The notes below the pieces were generated by a model. It did not search any database. It saw only the letters and a program-made list of their open reading frames with translations, and had not been told where the DNA came from. From Octopus sinensis (Eukaryota): 64,000 nucleotides of DNA. Below are positions 2,301 through 58,051 of this stretch, in pieces. Location: contig NC_043011.1 of assembly GCF_006345805.1 (NCBI RefSeq), positions 10,540,001 to 10,604,000 on the forward strand. Direction: 5' to 3'. Position 1 is the stretch's first letter, and each line of letters opens with the position of its first letter. The position numbers were made by a program, and so were the translations under genes.

Positions 2301-3482
2301 ATTTTACAAAGTCATATTAAACATACAAAAACAATGAAAAAACATAACAAAAATTATCATTATAAACCTGCCTAATATAACTTGAAACGACAACGCAACA
2401 AATTTAGATGGTATATACATCAACTGACGTTAGCGACATCTGGTGGATGGAGTAAGAGAAACGCGACCAGAGTAATATAACATGTCAGGTGAAGCAAGAC
2501 AGGTTAGAAATGAAAGAAGATACCACCAGTGTAGGTTATGGAAATATCTCTAAATATATTAACATCAATGAAATGAAAGGTGTATAGTAAATGATAGAAG
2601 AGCGGATAAAATACGGTACTTAGTGACGGACCTTTGAATTCAAGCACGCAGATCAATAAAATTCAAAGCCGAGGAATAATAAGTACCAATTAACTACTAA
2701 GATCGATTTAAAGTTGTGCCTCTGCTGGAGCAGCTAGAAACCTCTATGAGGTAGGAAAGAAGCCAGAGGTTGTGCTGTTCATATATATAATTTTATTAGT
2801 GGAGTTGACTGCAATGATGATGACATAGATACGTTCCTCTTGGTCGGTCATAGAACATTTTCACCTCGAAGAGGATTGGGGTATGTTGAAGGTGGGCGAC
2901 TTTCGGAGAGTTTCAGTTTTGAGGCAAATGGTTGGATAAGGGGAAATAACGCCTTGTTGGAGTTAGTAATACAGTGGGGGTGGGGATGATAGGCAAAATG
3001 TGGGAGGATTTATTAATTGAACGGAGGGGCATGGAATATGGCCTAAAAATTATTAATTTTAGAAAGAAAATTATTAAAGTCCTTCACGTGAAGAAACAGA
3101 ACCGATCTATATATCTAAATCCATACACGTATGGATTTAGATTTTTTTCTTCTCTTTTTTCTCTTTTTTCTCTTTTCTTTATTCCTCTCTTCCTGTTTTT
3201 GATTTGACCTTACAAATACATTCCCTACTTTTAGGTCACATTAAATAAAAACCTTGATTCAATAGCATTGTGTACAAACTTTATACTTGGAATGACCAAT
3301 TTTAGATACTATTGGATTTTACTTACAAGGTATTGGAATCTTATATATATACCATTCTGCCTAAATAATGGATCTACAAATGCAATATCCCTGCATATCT
3401 CACATCTATTGTCATTCCTCCACTTCATTCTCTATTTCGTATCTTATCTAAGATAACTATTACTTAACCATTTTCTCACACC

Positions 3483-3530
3483 GTCTCCGATGAAGGGATA
3501 TAATAAATATCCCGGAAGCGGCTGTAAGAC
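3483..3530 (+). ncRNA. Degenerate minimal type I hammerhead-like motif
   Basis: gtct-CCGATGA-a-gggatat/aataa/atatccc-gGAAGCggctGTA-agac. Stem I (gtct/agac), a perfect 7-bp stem II and the GUA triplet are present; the core carries substitutions. Confidence 0.55.
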
Positions 3531-3751
3531 CTTCTATTTATAAATGTTCTAAATTCCTCACAGCCTTGGTTTTTTGTTATCTCATTCTGAAAATAATTTT
3601 TTTTTATAAATACACACGCTGAAATATAACCTAAGTTGGACTCCTCATTCGCATAATCACAGAACCTGGAGCTTAACTATGGTCAATCCGTAGCACTTAC
3701 TTAGCATTACCTGACACCTTTGGGTCTTCTTGACACCATTACCTCTCATAG

Positions 3752-3813
<62 letters not shown>

Positions 3814-3830
3814 AATATATGTGACAACTA

Positions 3831-3913
3831 TTCGGTAGCCATGATAAAACTCCGAGTTTCGGATGTCGGGCGGAAACCCACGCCGCTATCTCTTCAGTTA
3901 TCCAGCCACCGAA
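3831..3913 (-). ncRNA. Type I hammerhead ribozyme with intact core
   Basis: Minus strand: ttcggtggct-g-gataa CTGAAGA gat...atc c GAAAC tcgga GT T ttatc-at-ggctaccgaa. About 15-bp stem I, CUGANGA and GAAA boxes, short stem III, GUU triplet. Confidence 0.7.
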
Positions 3914-3950
3914 AAAATGCTATGAAAATGACCGTTAAACAAAGGCATTT

Positions 3951-4037
3951 TTTCCGATGGCCGGATAACTGAATACATGGCGGCGTGGGTTTCCGCCCCG
4001 ACATCCGAAACTCGGAGTTTTATCATGGCAACGCAAT
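3951..4037 (+). ncRNA. Decayed second hammerhead copy (inverted partner)
   Basis: gataa CTGAATA catgg...catcc GAAAC tcgga GTT ttatc. Core G8 is changed to T and the outer stem I is degraded. Confidence 0.55.
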
Positions 4038-4352
4038 AATTGTCACATATTATATTTACAGATAAATTCCTCTATTTACATAATATTGAGGTCTCTTTCA
4101 TTCTTTTGTTGTCTTACTATTTCTATCAATATATATATATATATCCATGCATGGGTGTGTGTATGTTTTGTGTGTGTGTGTGTGTTACTCAACTGATATC
4201 GTTAGATAACTGCTGGAAATGTCTTTCTATCAATAAACACATTCTCAAGACAAATTTTTAATTTGTTAGAAAATATTACAATAAAGATAACAACGTCGTA
4301 GATTTCCTTATTGCCGGATCTGTTGCATCATACACACCCAACCACCACCACT

Positions 4353-13404: not shown

Positions 13405-14260
13405 CATAGTGGTTAGTCTTTCGAGCCCGAGTGGCGTCCATCTTATCTTCAGGAGGAAGCGTTAACTCGACTAGATTTACCATTTCCTTTCTTTCATGCT
13501 ATATGATAATATCCGGTTTCTTCGTAACTGGAATGAGAAAGAATACTTGGCACACAGGAGAATCTTCAGCCACCTCCCAATACCCGTTTGATTTTCCATC
13601 GCTCACAGAAAGATTCTTCTTCAAACGGATCTACTGTCCTGAACTCACGAAGGTAATGAAATCTCTGGTTGATTCCTTCAGTGGTTTTTCGCCACTGTTG
13701 ATGAGAGCAATTTGGTTCTTTATCGCATTGATAATCACTTTAAGGACCAGATTGTACTTCTATGTATATCGATTCAATGCCAGTGAAAGTATATATTTCA
13801 GTACCCCGACTTTTCCGCATCTGCATTTCTCAATTTCTGATACGTTCTAACTTACTAGGATGAACGAATCAGAAAACTTAGACGTGATGTAGTCCACTTC
13901 CATATCTTATTCCAACCTATTAACCTATTTTTCTCTCAACAACGTCTTCCTCCCATTTTGTTATCTGTCCTTGTTGAGAACATGGAATCAAATGAAGCTC
14001 CCATCTTCCTGTTTCCCTTGCTTTGACGCTGTTGCCGACAACAAATCAGCGTTCGCTCCGCATCGTGCCTGAAATGGTCTGAAGCCAACGGCTCTAAATC
14101 CAAGCCTCTTCCGAGGAATTTGCGTTGCACTCACCATATCTCGATGTGTAAGGGAAGACAGGATGTCAGGAAATGGAAAGCATTTCCTGACCGTTTTTAT
14201 TTCTGGTGGATTACGCCTGATTTCTATATCCTTCGATTCTCTTAGTATCGTCACCGTTCA
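13405..14260 (-). mobile_element. Hero-like (RLE-type) non-LTR retrotransposon relic
   Basis: LRESKDIEIR.NPPEIKT.RK; L.HRDMV.ATQ..R..LG; W..IWKW...RLSFLIRS; KCRCGKVG.LKYILS..LNRYT; KKPDIII...LVELTLPPED.MDA.RARKTNHY (PD-ELT endonuclease motif). Confidence 0.75.
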
Positions 14261-15599: not shown

Positions 15600-16510
15600 A
15601 GATTGGTTTCGGCCATTATCGGCCCAGGCCATAACTAACTCAATAGCACCACCTGGAAAAGTATTTTAGTTAATTATTTCGGGACACCATGGACCACTCA
15701 AGCAGAGATTTCTTGTTGGTTGAGACGTATCCAGGTGGAGGTGGTTTATCTGGTATTTCCTGGAAGAATTTGCCCAGGTACCGTTTGAAAGTTGTGGGGT
15801 CTTTTTCTACTTTAATTTCTTTCAGGATAACATTGAAAAGTGTAGGACCATTTGCAGTGAAGAAATTGTGTTGCAATGTTCTTATGTGATGTGATCTCAA
15901 CCTTTGTAGGGGACGCATTGCACGGGGGCCTAGTCCTGGGTGAATTGTAAACATAATGCCAATATCATTTGGATAATATTGGTGGAATATTTTCCACATG
16001 GTACAAATGATGTTTCGCTCATGGTGCCGTTGCAGAGAATAGAGCTGCAGCTGTTTAAGTCGAGCCCAATAATCAAATCGCATCATGCCATTTATTTTCT
16101 TTTTTGTGATTGATCTTTTGGCGCTTCGACCCTCATTCTGTCTTTGATTTTGTAGGGAGACCGCAATGGGCAGCAGTATTCGAGGTGGGGCCTAGCGAAT
16201 GTGGAGAAGAGAAGGATGATAGTTTCATGATTCCTAGATTGAAAAGTTCTTAGGATCCATGAGCACATTCTGCGGGCAACCTCGATTTTTTGTTGATGTG
16301 CACACTCCAGCTAAGTTTGCAGTCGACGGTTACACCTAAGTCTCTGATATTATGCGATGGTTCAAGTGGGTGCTCGCGGGGTTACTGCACATAGGTCCGA
16401 TTGAAGCATTGTTCGATCATATGCTTCCTTAATGACTTTCTGGAGCTTAGAGTCATCTGCAAATATTTTTAGGGTGCTATATTCAATGGAATCAGCAATG
16501 TCATTGATAT
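15600..16510 (-). mobile_element. CR1-group LINE 3' portion (reverse transcriptase relic)
   Basis: INDIAD...LKIFADDSKL; RDLGVTVD.KLSW..HI; WILRTF.SR; RPHLEYCCPL.SPY; YW.RLK.LQLYSLQR; K..L.KF.QEIPDKP..PGY. Confidence 0.88.
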
Positions 16511-37632: not shown

Positions 37633-39533
37633 ATGCTGCAATTTATGAATAAGTCGTCAAAAAATGCTGAAAAAATGTTCTCGCCAGATTATGTTGCAAA
37701 CCCAATAACGGAATTTAAATTTGAAGCAGACGAGAGACTTACCTTCGAGGCGTATTATAGAAGATAGGGACATATCTTCAATAAAGAGTGCAAAGATTGG
37801 GATGACGATATGAAAACGCGTCTAACCCTAAGAAAATTGGCAGCAGGAGCACATGAGCATTACAGCAATTACGTACTCCTGAAAAAACCTTCTGACATAA
37901 ACTTTAAAAATACAATAGAAATATTGTGTAAAATTTTTAGTGAGAAAAGTTCAATACACGCTGGAAATGTTTGAATCTAGAAAAGAACAACGATAAGGAC
38001 TGCATCACATATGCTGGTAGAGTTGACAGAGAATGTGAAGAGTACAAACTGGATGAGTTAACGCCAGACATGTTCAAGTGTCTGGTAATTACTCAGGGAC
38101 TAACTGCAAAAAAAGACGCAGAAGTAAGAACAAGAATTCTCGCTAAGCTGGAACAAATCCAAATTGTAACCTTACAACAACTGTCAGAAGAGTGTGAAAG
38201 AATAGTAAATCTAAGGCACGGCACAGAGAAAATTGAATATAAAGATTGATCGCAAGTGAAACAAGTGCGAAACAGGCAGAAGAGAAATCAAGTGTGTTGT
38301 ACTAAAATACAGTAGAAACAGGACAAGAATCAGGAAACAAACCCGTATTTTGTATGTGGAGGTCTACACCAGAGAAAAAATTGCTCTTTAAGAAAGTGCA
38401 ATGTTTCCGTTGTAGAGAAATGGCATATGAAAAGAGCACTGTAAAACCACGATGACAAAACGTTGGAACAAAAAAAAAGAGTAAACAAGATGTCGTCGAA
38501 AGAAAATGGTAATGTGAGAAAGGAAAATTGTAAATATGAAAATTGAAAATATAAGAGTAAAAATGCAGTTAGACACTGGAAGTGATATTAGCATTGTGAA
38601 TGAAGAAAGTTGGAAGTATAAAGGTAAGCCGAAATTAAGTAAATCTACAAAAGTAGCACACAGTGTTACGGGTAAGGCATTGTATTTTGTTGGTGAAATT
38701 GTGTGTCATGTGACAGCTCGTGACCAAATGAAAACGGCAAAAGTATATGTGTTAAAAAATTCAGTAAGTCTCTTCGACACAGAGTGGATGGAACATTTCA
38801 AATTGTGGAATACACCCATAAGTGTATTGTCGGGGAATATAGTCGATTCAGCCGAAGGTTCGAATGCAGTTGAGGGATTAAAACGAAAAATAAAGCTTTT
38901 ATTTCCAGAGGTTTTCACAGATGAACTGGGCTTCTACACGAAAACGAAGGCAAAATCTTAGTAAGACAAAGTGCAACACCTGTATTTAAGCCAAAACAGA
39001 ATGTACCGTATGCGGCGCTAGAACAGGTAAATAAGGAACTTGAAAGACTTGAAAGCTTAGGAATAATCGAGAAGACGAATCACTCAGATTGGCAGCACCT
39101 ACGGTCTACGTAAAAAAAGGAAAATAAGTTAAGTGTTTGTGCAAATTTTTCAACGGGGTTGAATGATTGCTTAATGTCACGTAACTACTCATTGCGGAGT
39201 CCTGAGGATGTGTTCGCAAAATTGAATAGAAGGAAATTCTTCAGTTCCATATTTAAGACATGAGGAATTATGTACATTATTTACATTATTTACAATTCCT
39301 GAAAGAGGATGCCAAATTAAAAATAAAAACATTAAATGTGTAACTATGAAATAGAAAAAACTCAAAAGAGGGAGGTGGAGGTGATATAAAAATTATTGCT
39401 AATAAAAGAAATAGAATTACACTTCCTTAGAAAATAGAACTTAAAAGGTGAGACGTTATGGGGATAATAGTAATAATGTACCGCCCCCTTCCACGTGATG
39501 AGTGGTATGTGATAGTCATTACAAATACCGGAA
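37275..39533 (+). mobile_element. Internally deleted Gypsy/Ty3 LTR retrotransposon
   Basis: 5' LTR TGTT...AACA 37275-37450; PBS TGGCGACGAGGA 37452-37463 (complementary to the tRNA-Ser(GCU) 3' end); Q-rich gag; protease LDTGSDISI; RT start PVFKPK..VPY...ELERLE.LGII; purine tract, then partial 3' LTR 39454-39533. RNase H and integrase are absent. Confidence 0.9.
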
Positions 39534-40149: not shown

Positions 40150-41625
40150 TAAAATGCAAAAGGGTTCTTGCAAGACCACTACAAAAGCTCTTCTAGAGGC
40201 ATATGTTCTATCCATAAGAGAGGTAGCAGAGCAGATGCTAAAAATTACGGACCCATCTTTCAAACCTCCCATCTCAGCAAAGTAATGTAACGCATTATCA
40301 AGAGAAAACTGATCGCGTTCCTTGAAGATAATGACTTGTTCCCTGGCACCCAGCATGGTTTCCACTCAGAAAGAAACTGCTTCACACGGCCTTTGTAGCT
40401 TAATGACTGTGTGTTGAAGCAACTAATGAATCGCTTAAACATGAATGTGATAATCTTAACTTTGTAAAGGTCTTTGATAAGGTCGATCACGTGATGATGT
40501 CACAAGCTACGGAGGCTTGGCATAGTCGGAAAACTGGAAGAGTGGTTATATGACTTCTTAAAAGACAGAAACCAAGTTGTGGCAGCCAATGGAGCCCTCT
40601 CCAAAGAGACAATTATAGAATGGAGTACCTCGGGGAACTGTATTGGGGTCACCACTGTTCATGGTAGCTCTTTCAGACATACCATCAGTTACAAAGAGAC
40701 CCACACTTACTAGCTATGTCGGCGACACAAAAGCAGTACAAGCAATTAAAGAACCTTCTGATGCTAATCTTCTACAGAAAGATCTAGATGCCATATATAC
40801 ATGGACCGAAGAAGACAATATGCAATTAATTTAATGCAGGTAATCCCAGGCCCTCTGCTAGCCAGCTAAATGGTGCCCACAAGCTGCAACAATGATACTT
40901 TGAACCAAATGGAGCAGCAATCCTAGAATGACATACAGTGCGTGATTCGGGGATTGATATGAGCAAGGGTGCCTCATTTCACGTACATATCACCAAGCTA
41001 GCGGCAATGTGCAGACGAATGACCAGATGGATTCTGAGATCAAGGGACCAAGAAACTGTTAGCTCTATGGAGGACATTTGTACTCAGCTGTCTGGACAAC
41101 TGCTCTCAGTTGTGGTCACTCTACAGTGTCAAAGTATTAGCGGGACTTGGGGCAGTTCAGCGGTACTACACCAGGAAAATTGCATTGATAGAACAGCTAA
41201 GCTACTGGAAGAGATTGAAAGAGCCACGACTTTACTCCTTGGAGCTAAGACAGCAGAGGTACGCAGTGATATACGTATGGAAGATCCTGGAGGGGCTGGC
41301 ACCAAAATTGGTATCGAGAGTTATATCGGCCCCGAACTGGACGTCACTGCACTGTTTTCAAAGATCCCAGCTATCTTGTCCAGAGTGAAGACCATGTATG
41401 GCAATAGCTTGGGATTTAAGAGCCCACAGTTATTTAACGCCCTGTCAAAACGTCTGAGAGATCTTCATGAAGTAAGGGGTAGATGTTTGCAAGAAACAGC
41501 TTCATCTCTTGCTATCCAAGGTCCTAGATGAACCAGTATCAAAGCAGGATACTCAAAAGAGGGCAGCAGTGTCGAACTCCCTCCTTCACTAAAACCAATC
41601 ACATGAGACTGGGCATTAAAAATTT
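40150..41625 (+). mobile_element. CR1-group LINE relic (reverse transcriptase and 3' end)
   Basis: TSHLSKVM.RII; QHGF; KVFDKVDH; GVP.GTVLG.PLF; YVGDTK (decayed YADD); YWKRLKE.RLYSLELR.QRY. Confidence 0.88.
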
Positions 41626-55280: not shown

Positions 55281-56866
55281 CTCCATGTGAGTTGCTGCCT
55301 TGTTAATTTGCTGAATTGTTGAATTCTTGTTGTTACTTGAATTTATTGCAGTTTTTATTTGCCTTCCCCGTTTCTGGCCGAGGTTATGAGGAGCATTGTT
55401 GTGGAGGGTGGACAAGTGAAAACGGGAAGTTGTGCTGCGGTAACTGGCAGAAGCCTGTCAGCGTAGCTACTACAGGTCCGGGAGTTAGAGGTCGGGGACG
55501 GGGACTTCAAGAAGTGCAGCGCCTTGCTGAGGAAGGAGAGGGACTGTCTAGGGCTGGTGCCTTTCAGGGAAGTTGTTGAGAGTTTGGAAGGGGAAACTAT
55601 CATATGTGGAGCGCTGAACATGGCATCAAGGAGGGTAGCGGTGGCGACCGTGGAAGCGGTTGAGGAGTGTTTGAGGGAAGTGGAGGAATCAACCACGTTC
55701 TGCACCGGAGGACGGAAGTTCGACGCGGTGGGGGTGCGCTTCGTGAGCGAGGGTGAGGCGGGTAGGTGCTCCACTATGGCATTGAAGTCGGTGGAGTGGA
55801 CACTGCTACCTGCTTGCTGTGGCAAGCGTGCGGCCAGGGTGGGGTGGGTGGAGTGCCCTTTGAAATTGACGAGGCATGGCTTGTGGCCTACAGAGGAAGA
55901 TACAGAAGTTTTTAAAATGTTGAAGACGACGGAGGTGAACTGCTAGACGTAATGGTCCATGTAAGCCTGCCAGACCTTCATTAGATTGTGAAAGAGCTGG
56001 TGTTACCTGACGAGACCAGATTAAGGAGTGTTGTGGAGGGTAGACCGCCAATATGTTTTGCGTGTGGAGGAAGGGGACACATGAAGGCCAAGTGCCCCCA
56101 GAAACACGAGGAGGAAATAATAGAAACAGAAATGCAAAAAGAGAATACAGTTGTAGAGGAGGAGAAAATAGAGAAACAATTTACGGTGGTGAAAAGAAAA
56201 AAGAACTTCGAATCACCCCCTAAAAGCCCGAAGGAGGAAAAAAGAAAAAGAAACGAGGAAGAGAACAAGAAAGAAAAGAAGAAAAATGGGAACTGAGGAA
56301 GCGTTACCTTCAACCAGTAAGGAAGAAGGAACACGCCAGGAGAATGAAAACGAAAGAGATTGGACGAAGAGAGTGTTGAAAGATATCAGAGAAAGATTAC
56401 CTAGAGGGAGAAATTTAGGAAACCTCGTAGAATAGGAAAAAGGTGTTGAAATCGAAAAGAGGGTAACAAAGATGAAAAATGTGATCCGAGTGAAATTGGC
56501 AAACTGAGAAGGTAAGAAGGGCGTGCTGTTGGGGAGAGAAAGAGGGGAGAGATTAGTAGAACTGTTTGGGGGAAAAAAAGAGTTTAGATACGACGAGTTG
56601 CCCCCTGTTTCGACGATCTTATGCAATATTTGTTTGTTTAAAAAACAAAAAAGACACATGACTGTAAAGTGAACAGTAATTTAAAAGAACAGTGAAATGG
56701 AACTGCTTGCATGGGGAGGGGGGGCGAGTAAACCATTTCCTCCTCCTTTTTTTTTCATAATCATAGTCCATTCGATATGTGTTTTATATGTACCCCAATG
56801 TCTTGGTTTGTCTGTCCTTATGGCGTCCCCTCTTTAGAAAGGCGATGTGCCTAAATAAAAGAAATC
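55281..56866 (+). mobile_element. ORF1-only (HAL1-like) non-LTR element inserted in the Gypsy LTR
   Basis: Decayed ORF with VVEGRPPICFACGGRGHMKAKCP knuckle and K/E-rich tail; no EN or RT; 3' end aataaaagaaat; flanking AGTTCG duplication (55275-55280 and 56867-56872). Confidence 0.65.
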
Positions 56867-58051
56867 AGTTCGTAGTTTGGTCTTCGAAGTCCAGGTACAG
56901 TTTACAGTTCGAGTTAATGTGTTGGAAATATTGATTGTTGGTTCGTAAAAGACTGCTGCTTCGTTGCGTGTTTGTTTCTGCTGCTGTTTCTATTTTACAT
57001 TGTTATAGCACTGTTACAGTGTATTCTTCATCTAACGTCGACACTATCAACCATATTGGAGGCGTAAGGCTGTAACATCTGGTGACGGGGATTTTTCGAA
57101 GCTCACGAAGGTTATTTGACGATATTGTGCGTCATACAAATTGTTAAATTAAAGAGAACCTATTCGCTGCAGTAATACGGCTTCAAGAGAAGCAACAACT
57201 ACAGCAGTTGCAGAAGCAAATATTACCACAACAACAACAACAGTTAATTGAGTTACAGTCAAGGAAGACCGAAAATTTGATAAGTTCATTTACGCCAGAC
57301 GGCGTGACGAACTCGCTTTCAGAATTTACTTATAATCGGGGGGGGGGCATTACGTTTCCTGCGTACTATAGAAGGTATGAGGAAATTTTTAACAACGATT
57401 GTAAGTCATGGTCGGATGAGGAGAAAGTGAGGCTATTACTACCCTAGGTAGCCCCCGGCCGAGTATATCGCTACTGTAACTTTATATTGCCCCAAAAGTC
57501 GAATGAAATTAGTTTCTAAGAAACTATTCAATATCTTTTGTGACAAAATTTCGTTCTTTATTACTGGAATGGAGTGTTGCAACTTAACAAAAAATGACGA
57601 CGATAATTTTATTACATACGTCGAAGTAGTCAGCCGTATGTGTGAAAACTTTGAACTTCAGGAACTCACTCAGAATATGTTTAAATCCGTTATCTTCGTA
57701 ACCGAAGATATAGAAATTCGGACAAGGATTCTCTCAAAAATGGAGCAAGCGAATCAAAACTTAACCCTACTGATCATTGCAGAAGAATGTCAAACAATGG
57801 TAAACCCGAAGCACGACGTGAAAAGAATTCAAGAGAAAGACTCTAATCCATGTTACGGATGTGGAGGCCTACACTTCAAAAAAGAGTGTCCGTTTAAAAG
57901 CCGAAAATGTTACAGTTGTTAGAAACCTTATCACAAGAGCTCACACTGCAGGACAAGATTACGACGATCGAACGCAAAAAATTTAAAGGTATTTTTAGCA
58001 GAAAGTGAATATGACACAAAAACAAGAAAATTTGCAGATATAAAAAAATGG

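What the first reader, a model, noticed from the sequence alone, without database searches (positions are those of the whole stretch)
3810..4130. Apparent MITE hairpin is a back-to-back pair of hammerhead ribozymes, one with an intact core
Seen: each arm, read from the centre outward, is a type I hammerhead. The minus-strand copy (3913 to 3831) keeps CUGAAGA, GAAA, a short near-palindromic stem III (ACUC-G-GAGU), a GUU triplet and about 15 bp of stem I; it has one extra C before GAAA. Predicted cut is between 3848 and 3847. The plus copy has CUGAAUA and a decayed stem I. Known: Penelope-like elements (PLEs) and retrozymes carry minimal type I hammerheads, which can act as dimers, and PLEs often insert with an inverted terminal repeat. 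Inference: this is a roughly 320-bp non-coding ribozyme retroelement in (TA)n in which a transcript from either strand ends in a hammerhead while also carrying its antisense, a possible folding-order switch.
Basis: partly seen in the sequence, partly recalled or inferred. Interest (0 to 1): 0.75.

Follow-up and report, generated by a model that had tools for sequence, protein, structure and literature searches.

The report
Two-armed stub of a Penelope retrotransposon
This hairpin is a single, decayed insertion of two back-to-back scraps of a protein-coding jumping gene (a Penelope-like element), each with that element's hammerhead-ribozyme motif (cutting untested); it is unlikely to be an RNA switch, and such stubs likely form when the copying enzyme starts twice near the RNA's front end and runs off it.

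Summary
The two hammerhead-like arms are real, and the minus-strand copy keeps the core (predicted cut 3848/3847). They are not a 320-bp ribozyme retroelement. They are two 5'-truncated pieces of the pseudo-LTR of an autonomous Hydra-clade Penelope-like element (RT plus GIY-YIG; at least 2,910 tail copies), joined head to head in (TA)n. The central junction occurs once in the genome. The arms end at the family's two fixed sites, about +110 and +40 from the cut, as expected from priming on both DNA strands. In the full transcript the antisense hairpin (-173 kcal/mol) abolishes the hammerhead fold, so a switch is unlikely. Sister copies add a mechanistic clue. First-pass arms pile up 60-80 nt upstream of the cut (29 of 72), not at the cut. 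Arms that loop back stop there again (12 of 12). Arms that crossed the ORF read through (20 of 21). This suggests an RNA 5' end there and a second template without that end, possibly a circle. RNA reads showed no end pile-ups. The scan has already reported two-armed Hydra stubs and 5' run-off on other DNA.

The parts
3754..3810 (.). (TA)n target tract, left flank
   Evidence: sequence; family copies end in TA tracts
3812..3945 (-). Short-end arm: pseudo-LTR fragment from -98 to about +36 relative to the hammerhead cut, subfamily A
   Evidence: 93% identical to natural copy L033; family short end at +31 to +45 in 42 of 46 inverted arms
3831..3913 (-). Type I hammerhead motif with intact core: CUGAAGA 3897-3891, GAAA 3860-3857, 3-bp stem III with palindromic loop, GUU 3850-3848; predicted cut 3848/3847; cleavage untested
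   Evidence: 7 substitutions and 1 gap in 100 columns against the subfamily majority, none in the core
3945..3945 (.). Head-to-head junction of the two arms (one shared G); unique in the genome
   Evidence: 1 match at up to 1 mismatch in G000
3945..4129 (+). Long-end arm: pseudo-LTR fragment from -75 to about +109
   Evidence: 92% identical to L033; the same long end recurs in sister copies
3953..4036 (+). Broken hammerhead copy: G8U at 3974, G10.1C at 3976, outer stem I disrupted; homologous cut position 4019/4020
4062..4129 (+). PLE 'tail': about 65-70 nt between the short and long ends, present on one arm only
   Evidence: tail concept from PMC8557442 and PMC11167929
4129..4144 (.). (TA)n tract, right flank; no target-site duplication can be told apart from it

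Best explanation
The hairpin is a one-off, decaying insertion of two 5'-truncated pseudo-LTR pieces of an autonomous Hydra-clade Penelope-like retrotransposon, joined head to head in (TA)n and likely made when both nicked DNA strands primed reverse transcription on the element's RNA. Shown: parentage, the two fixed 3' ends (about +40 and +110 from the hammerhead cut), the unique junction, and a pile-up of arm 5' ends just upstream of the hammerhead. Inferred: the GIY-YIG domain nicks both strands in (TA)n; the RT starts at two internal sites just upstream of the ORF; it copies back through an uncut hammerhead; it stops at about -55 to -85, most likely the RNA's 5' end; and the two short cDNAs are joined by microhomology. 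The hammerhead is the element's ordinary pseudo-LTR ribozyme. At this locus it is probably silent, because any transcript through the insert makes the antisense arm first and folds into a long hairpin.
For: Parent: longer copies run upstream from the motif through a 3' UTR into a GIY-YIG frame and an RT fragment. L056 is a natural pLTR-ORF-pLTR with a 717-aa open frame and a 2,578-nt unit. 979 homologues reach E<=1e-20 among 7,995 scored. Motifs match the published Hydra definition. Copy number: 2,910 exact matches to a 31-nt tail pattern, 0 for the reversed control. Two-armed form: 46 of 87 unselected long-end copies (90 loci, 3 near-duplicates dropped) have an inverted arm within 150 nt, counted only where it ended at +5 to +70; 42 of the 46 end at +31 to +45, 20 carry the core on both arms, and 13 are window-like. 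5' ends: 29 of 72 arms reaching -60 stop between -60 and -80 (0.40 per 20 nt, against 0.03-0.12 beyond -100). Loop-back copies leave at -63 to -87 and re-enter the early ORF in 16 of 30 subfamily-A 5'UTR loci; similar loops occur in subfamily B. Fold: full hairpin -172.6 against -32.4 kcal/mol for the isolated motif, with hammerhead helix probabilities 0.00. Literature: dual minimal hammerheads 100-700 bp apart on opposite strands (PMC4209133); inverted 5'-truncated copies and the tail (PMC8557442); priming on both strands, two internal start sites, uncut RNA as the main substrate (PMC11167929).
Against: No RNA 5' end was observed: two lays of three raw RNA runs from a related organism gave no place where many molecules begin or end, with both strands about equal. 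The window's arms start at -75 and -98, so one lies upstream of the main peak. A predicted helix between -88..-74 and +237..+252 (probability about 0.9-1.0 in subfamily B) could also stall the RT there. Pfam did not recognise the full ORF, and GIY-YIG was only faint on a fragment (E 0.012). Covariation within the family is not above shuffles. End positions come from alignments and can be off by several bases.
Confidence: 0.88

Rival explanations
1. Same parentage, but the arms stop at -60 to -80 because the RT stalls at a long-range helix that pairs the bases just upstream of the hammerhead (-88..-74) with ORF codons 9-14 (+237..+252), not because the RNA ends there. Arms that have already copied the ORF strand would have opened the helix and read through.
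For: RNAfold predicts the 15-bp helix in natural copy L056; duplex -15.4 kcal/mol, 1% of shuffles as good. Subfamily-B loop-backs mostly land at +242 to +252. Arms with 1.1 kb or more of ORF stop there in only 1 of 21 cases (p=0.0014 against 29 of 72).
Against: Loop-back arms have also copied the partner strand, yet 12 of 12 that reach -50 stop or jump again at -53 to -82. The helix is weak in subfamily A (shuffle fractions 0.14, 0.23 and 1.0) and reaches p<=0.05 in only 4 of 16 distant relatives. Subfamily-A loops land at +254 to +444.
Confidence: 0.2
2. One reading: a non-coding ribozyme retroelement of about 320 bp that moves as a unit and acts as a folding-order switch.
For: Both strands carry a hammerhead copy, and window-like stubs are common (13 of 46 two-armed copies).
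Against: The junction is unique and junctions differ among stubs. One arm has lost G8 and G10.1. The antisense arm is transcribed first and the hairpin is about 140 kcal/mol more stable. The parent encodes its own protein.
Confidence: 0.04
3. A MITE or other DNA-transposon derivative with terminal inverted repeats.
For: Short, palindromic, and inserted in TA.
Against: The arms are unequal pieces of a retroelement's end, the junctions vary, and the parent is an RT/GIY-YIG element.
Confidence: 0.01
4. The motif is a hammerhead relic that no longer cuts anywhere in this lineage.
For: The youngest subfamily (copies about 97-99% alike) has U4C in 50 of 51 copies, a change reported to lower activity considerably in vitro (PMC3088659). 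No pile-up of arm ends at the cut and no RNA ends there.
Against: The other core positions are kept across subfamilies: core changes 23/803 against 146/3126 elsewhere in A, p=0.025, though biased by the anchor used to collect copies. U4C still allowed viroid infectivity. The PAc hammerhead cuts only when its protein is present.
Confidence: 0.35

Closest known systems
Hydra clade of C-terminal EN+ Penelope-like elements, including Hydra-1_Obim of Octopus bimaculoides (Craig et al. 2021, PMC8557442; passages, sections 3 and 11, supplement rows read)
   Same: Unit under 3 kb, single ORF, RWK, DKT, CxCx5C linker, no CCHH in the endonuclease, CxxC and CxH around E and N, (TA)n targeting, hammerhead in the pseudo-LTR, inverted truncated copy plus tail. 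By eye the RT is close to the Hydra-1_Obim rows shown.
   Different: A different family from Hydra-1_Obim, whose listed hammerhead has other stems and a 1-nt loop III. This family's stem III strings were not found in that supplement. The tail is about 65-70 nt, against the 30-40 bp described. The youngest subfamily carries U4C.
PLE hammerheads with a small palindromic helix III (Cervera and de la Pena 2014, PMC4209133; parts 1-2 of 4 read)
   Same: Type I motif in pseudo-LTRs, palindromic 15.2-16.2 region suited to dimers, and dual motifs 100-700 bp apart on opposite strands already reported in Schistosoma.
   Different: The unpaired base is on the 3' side of stem II rather than between positions 9 and 10.1. 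Stem II is long with internal loops, and stem I is extended.
PAc (Poseidon_Ac) of Anolis (Frangieh et al. 2024, PMC11167929; parts 1-2 of 4 read)
   Same: Works like it: both strands cut and extended, two internal RT start sites bounding the tail, uncut RNA used as template, no RNA-seq ends at the cut.
   Different: Different clade. Here both start sites lie in the 5' UTR, about 100-170 nt before the ATG, rather than inside the ORF. The parts read do not map where cDNA 5' ends fall in genomic copies.
Metazoan non-LTR retrozymes (Li, Clavereau and Pollet 2026, 10.64898/2026.07.22.740005; part 1 of 5 read)
   Same: Type I hammerhead derived from a PLE pseudo-LTR. The loop-back copies found here (such as L215 and L314) have two or three tandem hammerhead units and resemble nascent retrozymes.
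   Different: The window insert is head to head rather than tandem, and it has no copies of its own.

Membership tests
Hydra-clade PLE (parent element) | Single ORF with RT and C-terminal GIY-YIG, unit under 3 kb | tested here: met
   717-aa frame with YKDD and C-terminal IIY..YVG motifs; unit 2,578 nt. Pfam gave nothing on the full frame and GIY-YIG E 0.012 on a fragment.
Hydra-clade PLE (parent element) | RWK motif and DKT in place of DKG | tested here: met
   RMRWKAF and SDKTKN in the L056 frame
Hydra-clade PLE (parent element) | CxCx5C linker; no CCHH between GIY and YIG; CxxC and CxH around E and N | tested here: met
   CSCRNKELC; no Cys between the motifs; CGLC..E..N..CPH
Hydra-clade PLE (parent element) | Insertion into (TA)n | tested here: met
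   TA tracts follow the long end in most of 90 unselected loci and flank the window insert
Hydra-clade PLE (parent element) | Placement inside Hydra in an RT phylogeny | not tested
   No tree was built; only a by-eye comparison with the supplement alignment
PLE insertion structure | Inverted 5'-truncated copy with the tail at one end only | tested here: met
   Window has one long and one short end; 46 of 87 unselected copies have an adjacent inverted arm
Type I hammerhead ribozyme | Core CUGANGA, GAAA and UH with helices I-III (minus arm) | tested here: met
   One extra base in stem II next to G12. In the isolated fold, stem I is well supported but the tested stem II and III pairs have low probability.
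Type I hammerhead ribozyme | Core intact (plus arm) | tested here: not met
   G8U and G10.1C
Type I hammerhead ribozyme | Compensatory changes in the helices | tested here: inconclusive
   Within the family, 87.5% of cells pair but no measure beats shuffles. Across distant relatives the same fold occurs with unrelated stems in 34 of 71 loci, 0 antisense.
Type I hammerhead ribozyme | Self-cleavage after GUU | not testable with these tools
   Needs an in vitro assay; RNA lays showed no end pile-up
Rfam hammerhead families | Score at or above the gathering threshold | tested here: not met
Non-LTR retrozyme | Tandem head-to-tail units that move as a non-coding element | tested here: not met
   Head-to-head arrangement; junction unique
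MITE | Many copies of one unit with terminal inverted repeats and a target duplication | tested here: not met

The most novel reading that the evidence does not exclude
The genome records two different templates for this Penelope-like element. One is a linear RNA that starts about 70-75 nt upstream of the hammerhead cut: the RT starts at the tail in front of the ORF and runs off after 110-190 nt, leaving stubs like this one, or jumps back into the early ORF and makes tandem mini-loops that look like newborn retrozymes. The other has no such end and yields the long and more-than-unit-length copies. That second template would be a circle made by hammerhead cutting in both pseudo-LTRs and rejoining. 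The hammerhead's job would then be to turn the transcript into the only template that can give a full-length, transposition-competent copy.
Probability: 0.3. Interest if true: 0.72.

Novelty: new member of a known kind. Interest (0 to 1): 0.34.

Why it matters
The locus itself is ordinary debris, one of thousands of stubs. The family statistics bear on an open question. PMC8557442 says hammerhead function in EN+ PLEs is unclear, and PMC11167929 found it dispensable for insertion in vitro. Here loop-back arms stop at the -55 to -85 boundary in 12 of 12 cases and ORF-crossing arms in 1 of 21. That contrast makes the circle hypothesis of PMC4209133 directly testable in a young, high-copy family. 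It also offers a route from PLEs to retrozymes.

Tried and rejected
Rfam found no hammerhead. Pfam and PDB sequences did not recognise the full ORF. RNA: no run on record as RNA held the stretch (no RNA holder listed). Lays of three raw RNA runs of a related organism plus one contig set each gave no begin/end pile-up, about equal strands, and depth mainly on the motif and tail, which fits passive transcription of stubs. They do not test cleavage. Excess of arm ends at the cut site was looked for and not found; there is only a broad rise from -20 to +20. Splicing as the source of the -75 boundary was considered (a YAG acceptor-like site lies there) and rejected, because the re-entry points vary from +226 to +444 and the exit points by about 10 nt either way. 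A scrambled (SGC-type) hammerhead order, a lead, was not needed: the strands are in the usual type I order. The conserved long-range helix was tested in 19 sequences and was not general. An initiator/DPE-like spacing at -72 was noticed by eye, but it is too short a motif to count. The descriptor hits at 13569 and 673 were set aside: 13569 lies in what reads by eye as a degraded coding fragment, and 673 was not followed. Paper searches found no report of run-off or loop-back statistics for PLEs; ('Penelope-like', 'strong-stop', 'hammerhead') returned 0 papers. The library lacks most subscription journals, and bioRxiv supplements were not available.

Full report
1. Observation. The insert lies between (TA)n tracts at 3754-3810 and 4129-4144, with inverted arms 87-88% complementary. 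The minus strand reads as a type I hammerhead: stem I, CUGAAGA (3897-3891), a long stem II, GAAA (3860-3857), ACUC-G-GAGU and GUU, with the cut predicted between 3848 and 3847. Folded alone it gives z -2.5. The plus copy has G8U, G10.1C and a damaged outer stem I (z +0.4). Rfam recognises neither. All relative positions below count from the cut (0 = first base after it).

2. Parentage. The motif is a repeat in this 2.7-Gb animal genome: 2,458 first-look candidates, and 2,910 exact matches to a 31-nt pattern from the tail against 0 for the reversed control. In longer copies the motif is preceded by a 3' UTR and then an endonuclease frame and RT fragments. A protein search found a younger sister subfamily (B) with near-identical copies. 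Locus L056 is a natural pLTR-ORF-pLTR with a 717-aa frame and a 2,578-nt unit. Its motifs (RWK, DKT, CxCx5C, no CCHH, CxxC..E..N..CxH) match the Hydra clade as defined in section 11 of PMC8557442. That paper's supplement lists Hydra-1_Obim, a related but different family. No tree was built, and Pfam and PDB sequence searches did not recognise the frame. The window's arms belong to the older subfamily A (92-93% identical to L033) and differ from its majority at 7 substitutions plus 1 gap in 100 columns and 8 in 113.

3. Is it a hammerhead? Within the family the evidence is weak. 87.5% of cells pair, but covariation does not beat shuffles. The core is only modestly better kept than other positions (23/803 against 146/3126, p=0.025 in A; p=0.07 in B), and the anchor used to collect copies biases this. 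Across distance the evidence is strong. Of 77 metagenome loci encoding relatives at 40-47% identity, I scanned 71 (six short internal fragments left out). A type I descriptor hit the sense flanks of 34, the antisense of 0, and shuffles a mean of 0.0. Hits lie mostly about 180-220 nt before the ORF or 70-300 nt after it, with unrelated stems and in several cases the same stem III. The 'extra C' is a family trait, best read as a bulge after a G10.1-C/U11.1 pair (inference). Subfamily B has U4C in 50 of 51 copies, a change that lowers but need not abolish activity (PMC3088659 passage). Cleavage is untested.

4. Not a unit and unlikely a switch. The central junction occurs once in the genome at up to 1 mismatch. 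I examined 90 loci taken in chromosome order from the first 100 listed tail matches and dropped 3 near-duplicates. 46 of the 87 have an inverted arm within 150 nt (counted only where it ended at +5 to +70), and 42 of those 46 end at +31 to +45, while the anchor arm ends at about +110. 20 of the 46 have the core on both arms and 13 are window-like, with varied junctions. The window (-98 to +36 and -75 to +109) is one of these. A transcript through it from either strand makes the antisense arm first. The hairpin is -172.6 or -164.4 kcal/mol against -32.4 for the isolated motif, and hammerhead pairs have probability 0.00. PMC4209133 already describes such opposite-strand pairs, and PMC8557442 describes the inverted copy and the tail.

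5. How it likely forms. PMC11167929 shows for the PAc element that both strands are cut and extended, that RT starts at two internal sites which bound the tail, and that uncut RNA is the main substrate. The fixed long and short ends here fit that scheme (inference). The 5' ends of 133 arms are not uniform. 29 of 72 arms reaching -60 stop between -60 and -80 (0.40 per 20 nt), against 0.03-0.12 beyond -100, with a lesser broad rise from -20 to +20 and no spike at 0. An RT moving 3' to 5' has already opened stem I by then, so the hammerhead itself should not block it there (inference).

Copies containing the 5' UTR fall into two classes. Loop-back copies leave at -63 to -87 and re-enter at +254 to +444 in 16 of 30 subfamily-A loci. 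In subfamily B, loops were seen in 6 of 20 loci and in 4 insertions among 30 loci (plus one tandem array leaving at -148); they mostly re-enter at +242 to +252. All 12 second passes that reach -50 stop or jump again at -53 to -82. Arms with 1.1 kb or more of contiguous ORF behind them read through: 1 of 21 that reach -60 stops there, and the rest go on as far as -1073 (9, 9, 3). I left out six copies with large internal deletions or short ORF stretches; five of them passed the boundary and one ended at -56. Fisher p is 0.0014 against first-pass arms and 4e-8 against loop-backs. I counted these classes by hand from alignment boundaries.

The simplest reading is a physical RNA 5' end near -70 for stubs and loops, and a template without that end for long copies. 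An internal promoter in the pseudo-LTR is known for D. virilis Penelope (PMC2377424 passages). The rival is a stall at a predicted helix between -88..-74 and +237..+252. It explains the read-through but not the repeated stop in loops, and it is not general. Read-through transcripts of tandem arrays could also supply end-free templates.

6. RNA. No run on record as RNA held the stretch. Raw RNA runs of a related organism, about 6% read, gave no begin/end pile-ups, near-equal strands, and depth of the order of 100 per strand on the motif and tail against about 0-12 on the 5' UTR and ORF. This neither supports nor excludes cleavage or a start site.

7. Earlier notes. One search gave me the wording 'two-armed' and the lead of laps round a circle, from other families in this genome. 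I noted the run-off idea, which showed five unchecked notes with the same reading for Hydra-type stubs in this and other genomes. They are not independent support, and they mean the pattern is not new to the scan. One of them says stubs also record the cut site; I saw no spike there. The contrast between loop-back and ORF-crossing arms did not appear in the lines shown.

8. Verdict. The locus is an old stub of a new family in a known clade (confidence 0.88), interest 0.34. The circle reading has a probability of about 0.3 and would merit about 0.72. Papers seen: PMC4209133 parts 1-2 of 4; PMC11167929 parts 1-2 of 4; PMC8557442 passages, sections 3 and 11, supplement rows; 10.64898/2026.07.22.740005 part 1 of 5; PMC2377424 and PMC3088659 passages only.

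Noticed in passing
window 3440-3600 (+), core-like CCGAUGA at 3487-3493: A second, unrelated hammerhead-like repeat family (3,662 first-look candidates, 40 scored). Six of 7 other copies printed also read CCGAUGA (U4C) and one CUGAUGA; the window copy has lost GAAA. At least three of the listed copies have a long inverted partner nearby. U4C therefore recurs in two families of this genome.
   Followed up: partly
L056 and other subfamily-B loci (L057-L075): A young sister subfamily (about 97-99% identical copies, open frames up to 717 aa) has fixed U4C in its hammerhead core and a much shorter 3' UTR (about 220 nt against 700-1,100 nt).
   Followed up: partly
L215, L314, L168/L189, L169/L170: Tandem mini-units of 300-520 nt (hammerhead, tail, 5' UTR, ORF start) with the same junction repeated; in L314 a scrambled filler is repeated too, and in L169/L170 both arms share nearly the same junction. 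Candidates for nascent retrozymes copied from a small circle or from a mini-element.
   Followed up: partly
L056 4386-4372 with 4061-4046 (minus strand; -88..-74 with +237..+252): Predicted 15-bp long-range helix between the sequence just upstream of the hammerhead and ORF codons 9-14; strong in subfamily B, weak in A.
   Followed up: partly
L168, L174, L175, L189 and L198, L199, L210: Further recurrent arm 5' ends at -148 and at about -208 (the latter in an AT-rich repeat); unexplained.
   Followed up: no
L216-L292 (metagenome contigs): Distant Hydra-type elements often have U opposite U at positions 10.1/11.1 of the hammerhead, and several share this family's stem III sequence.
   Followed up: no
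L031 8432-8803 (+): Fragment of a more distant Hydra-type endonuclease frame; no hammerhead core seen by eye in the first 500 nt after it.
   Followed up: partly
window 13420-13900 (-): Degraded coding fragment that by eye resembles the C-terminal endonuclease end of a non-LTR retrotransposon (label recalled, not tested); the hammerhead-descriptor hit at 13569 lies inside it and is probably chance.
   Followed up: no
window 15670-16191, 38518-38961, 40932-41531, 55355-56680, 57452-57922: Open frames that by eye look like retroelement debris; no host gene was evident among 47 frames of 130 aa or more, most of which are simple repeats. Not tested against Pfam.
   Followed up: no
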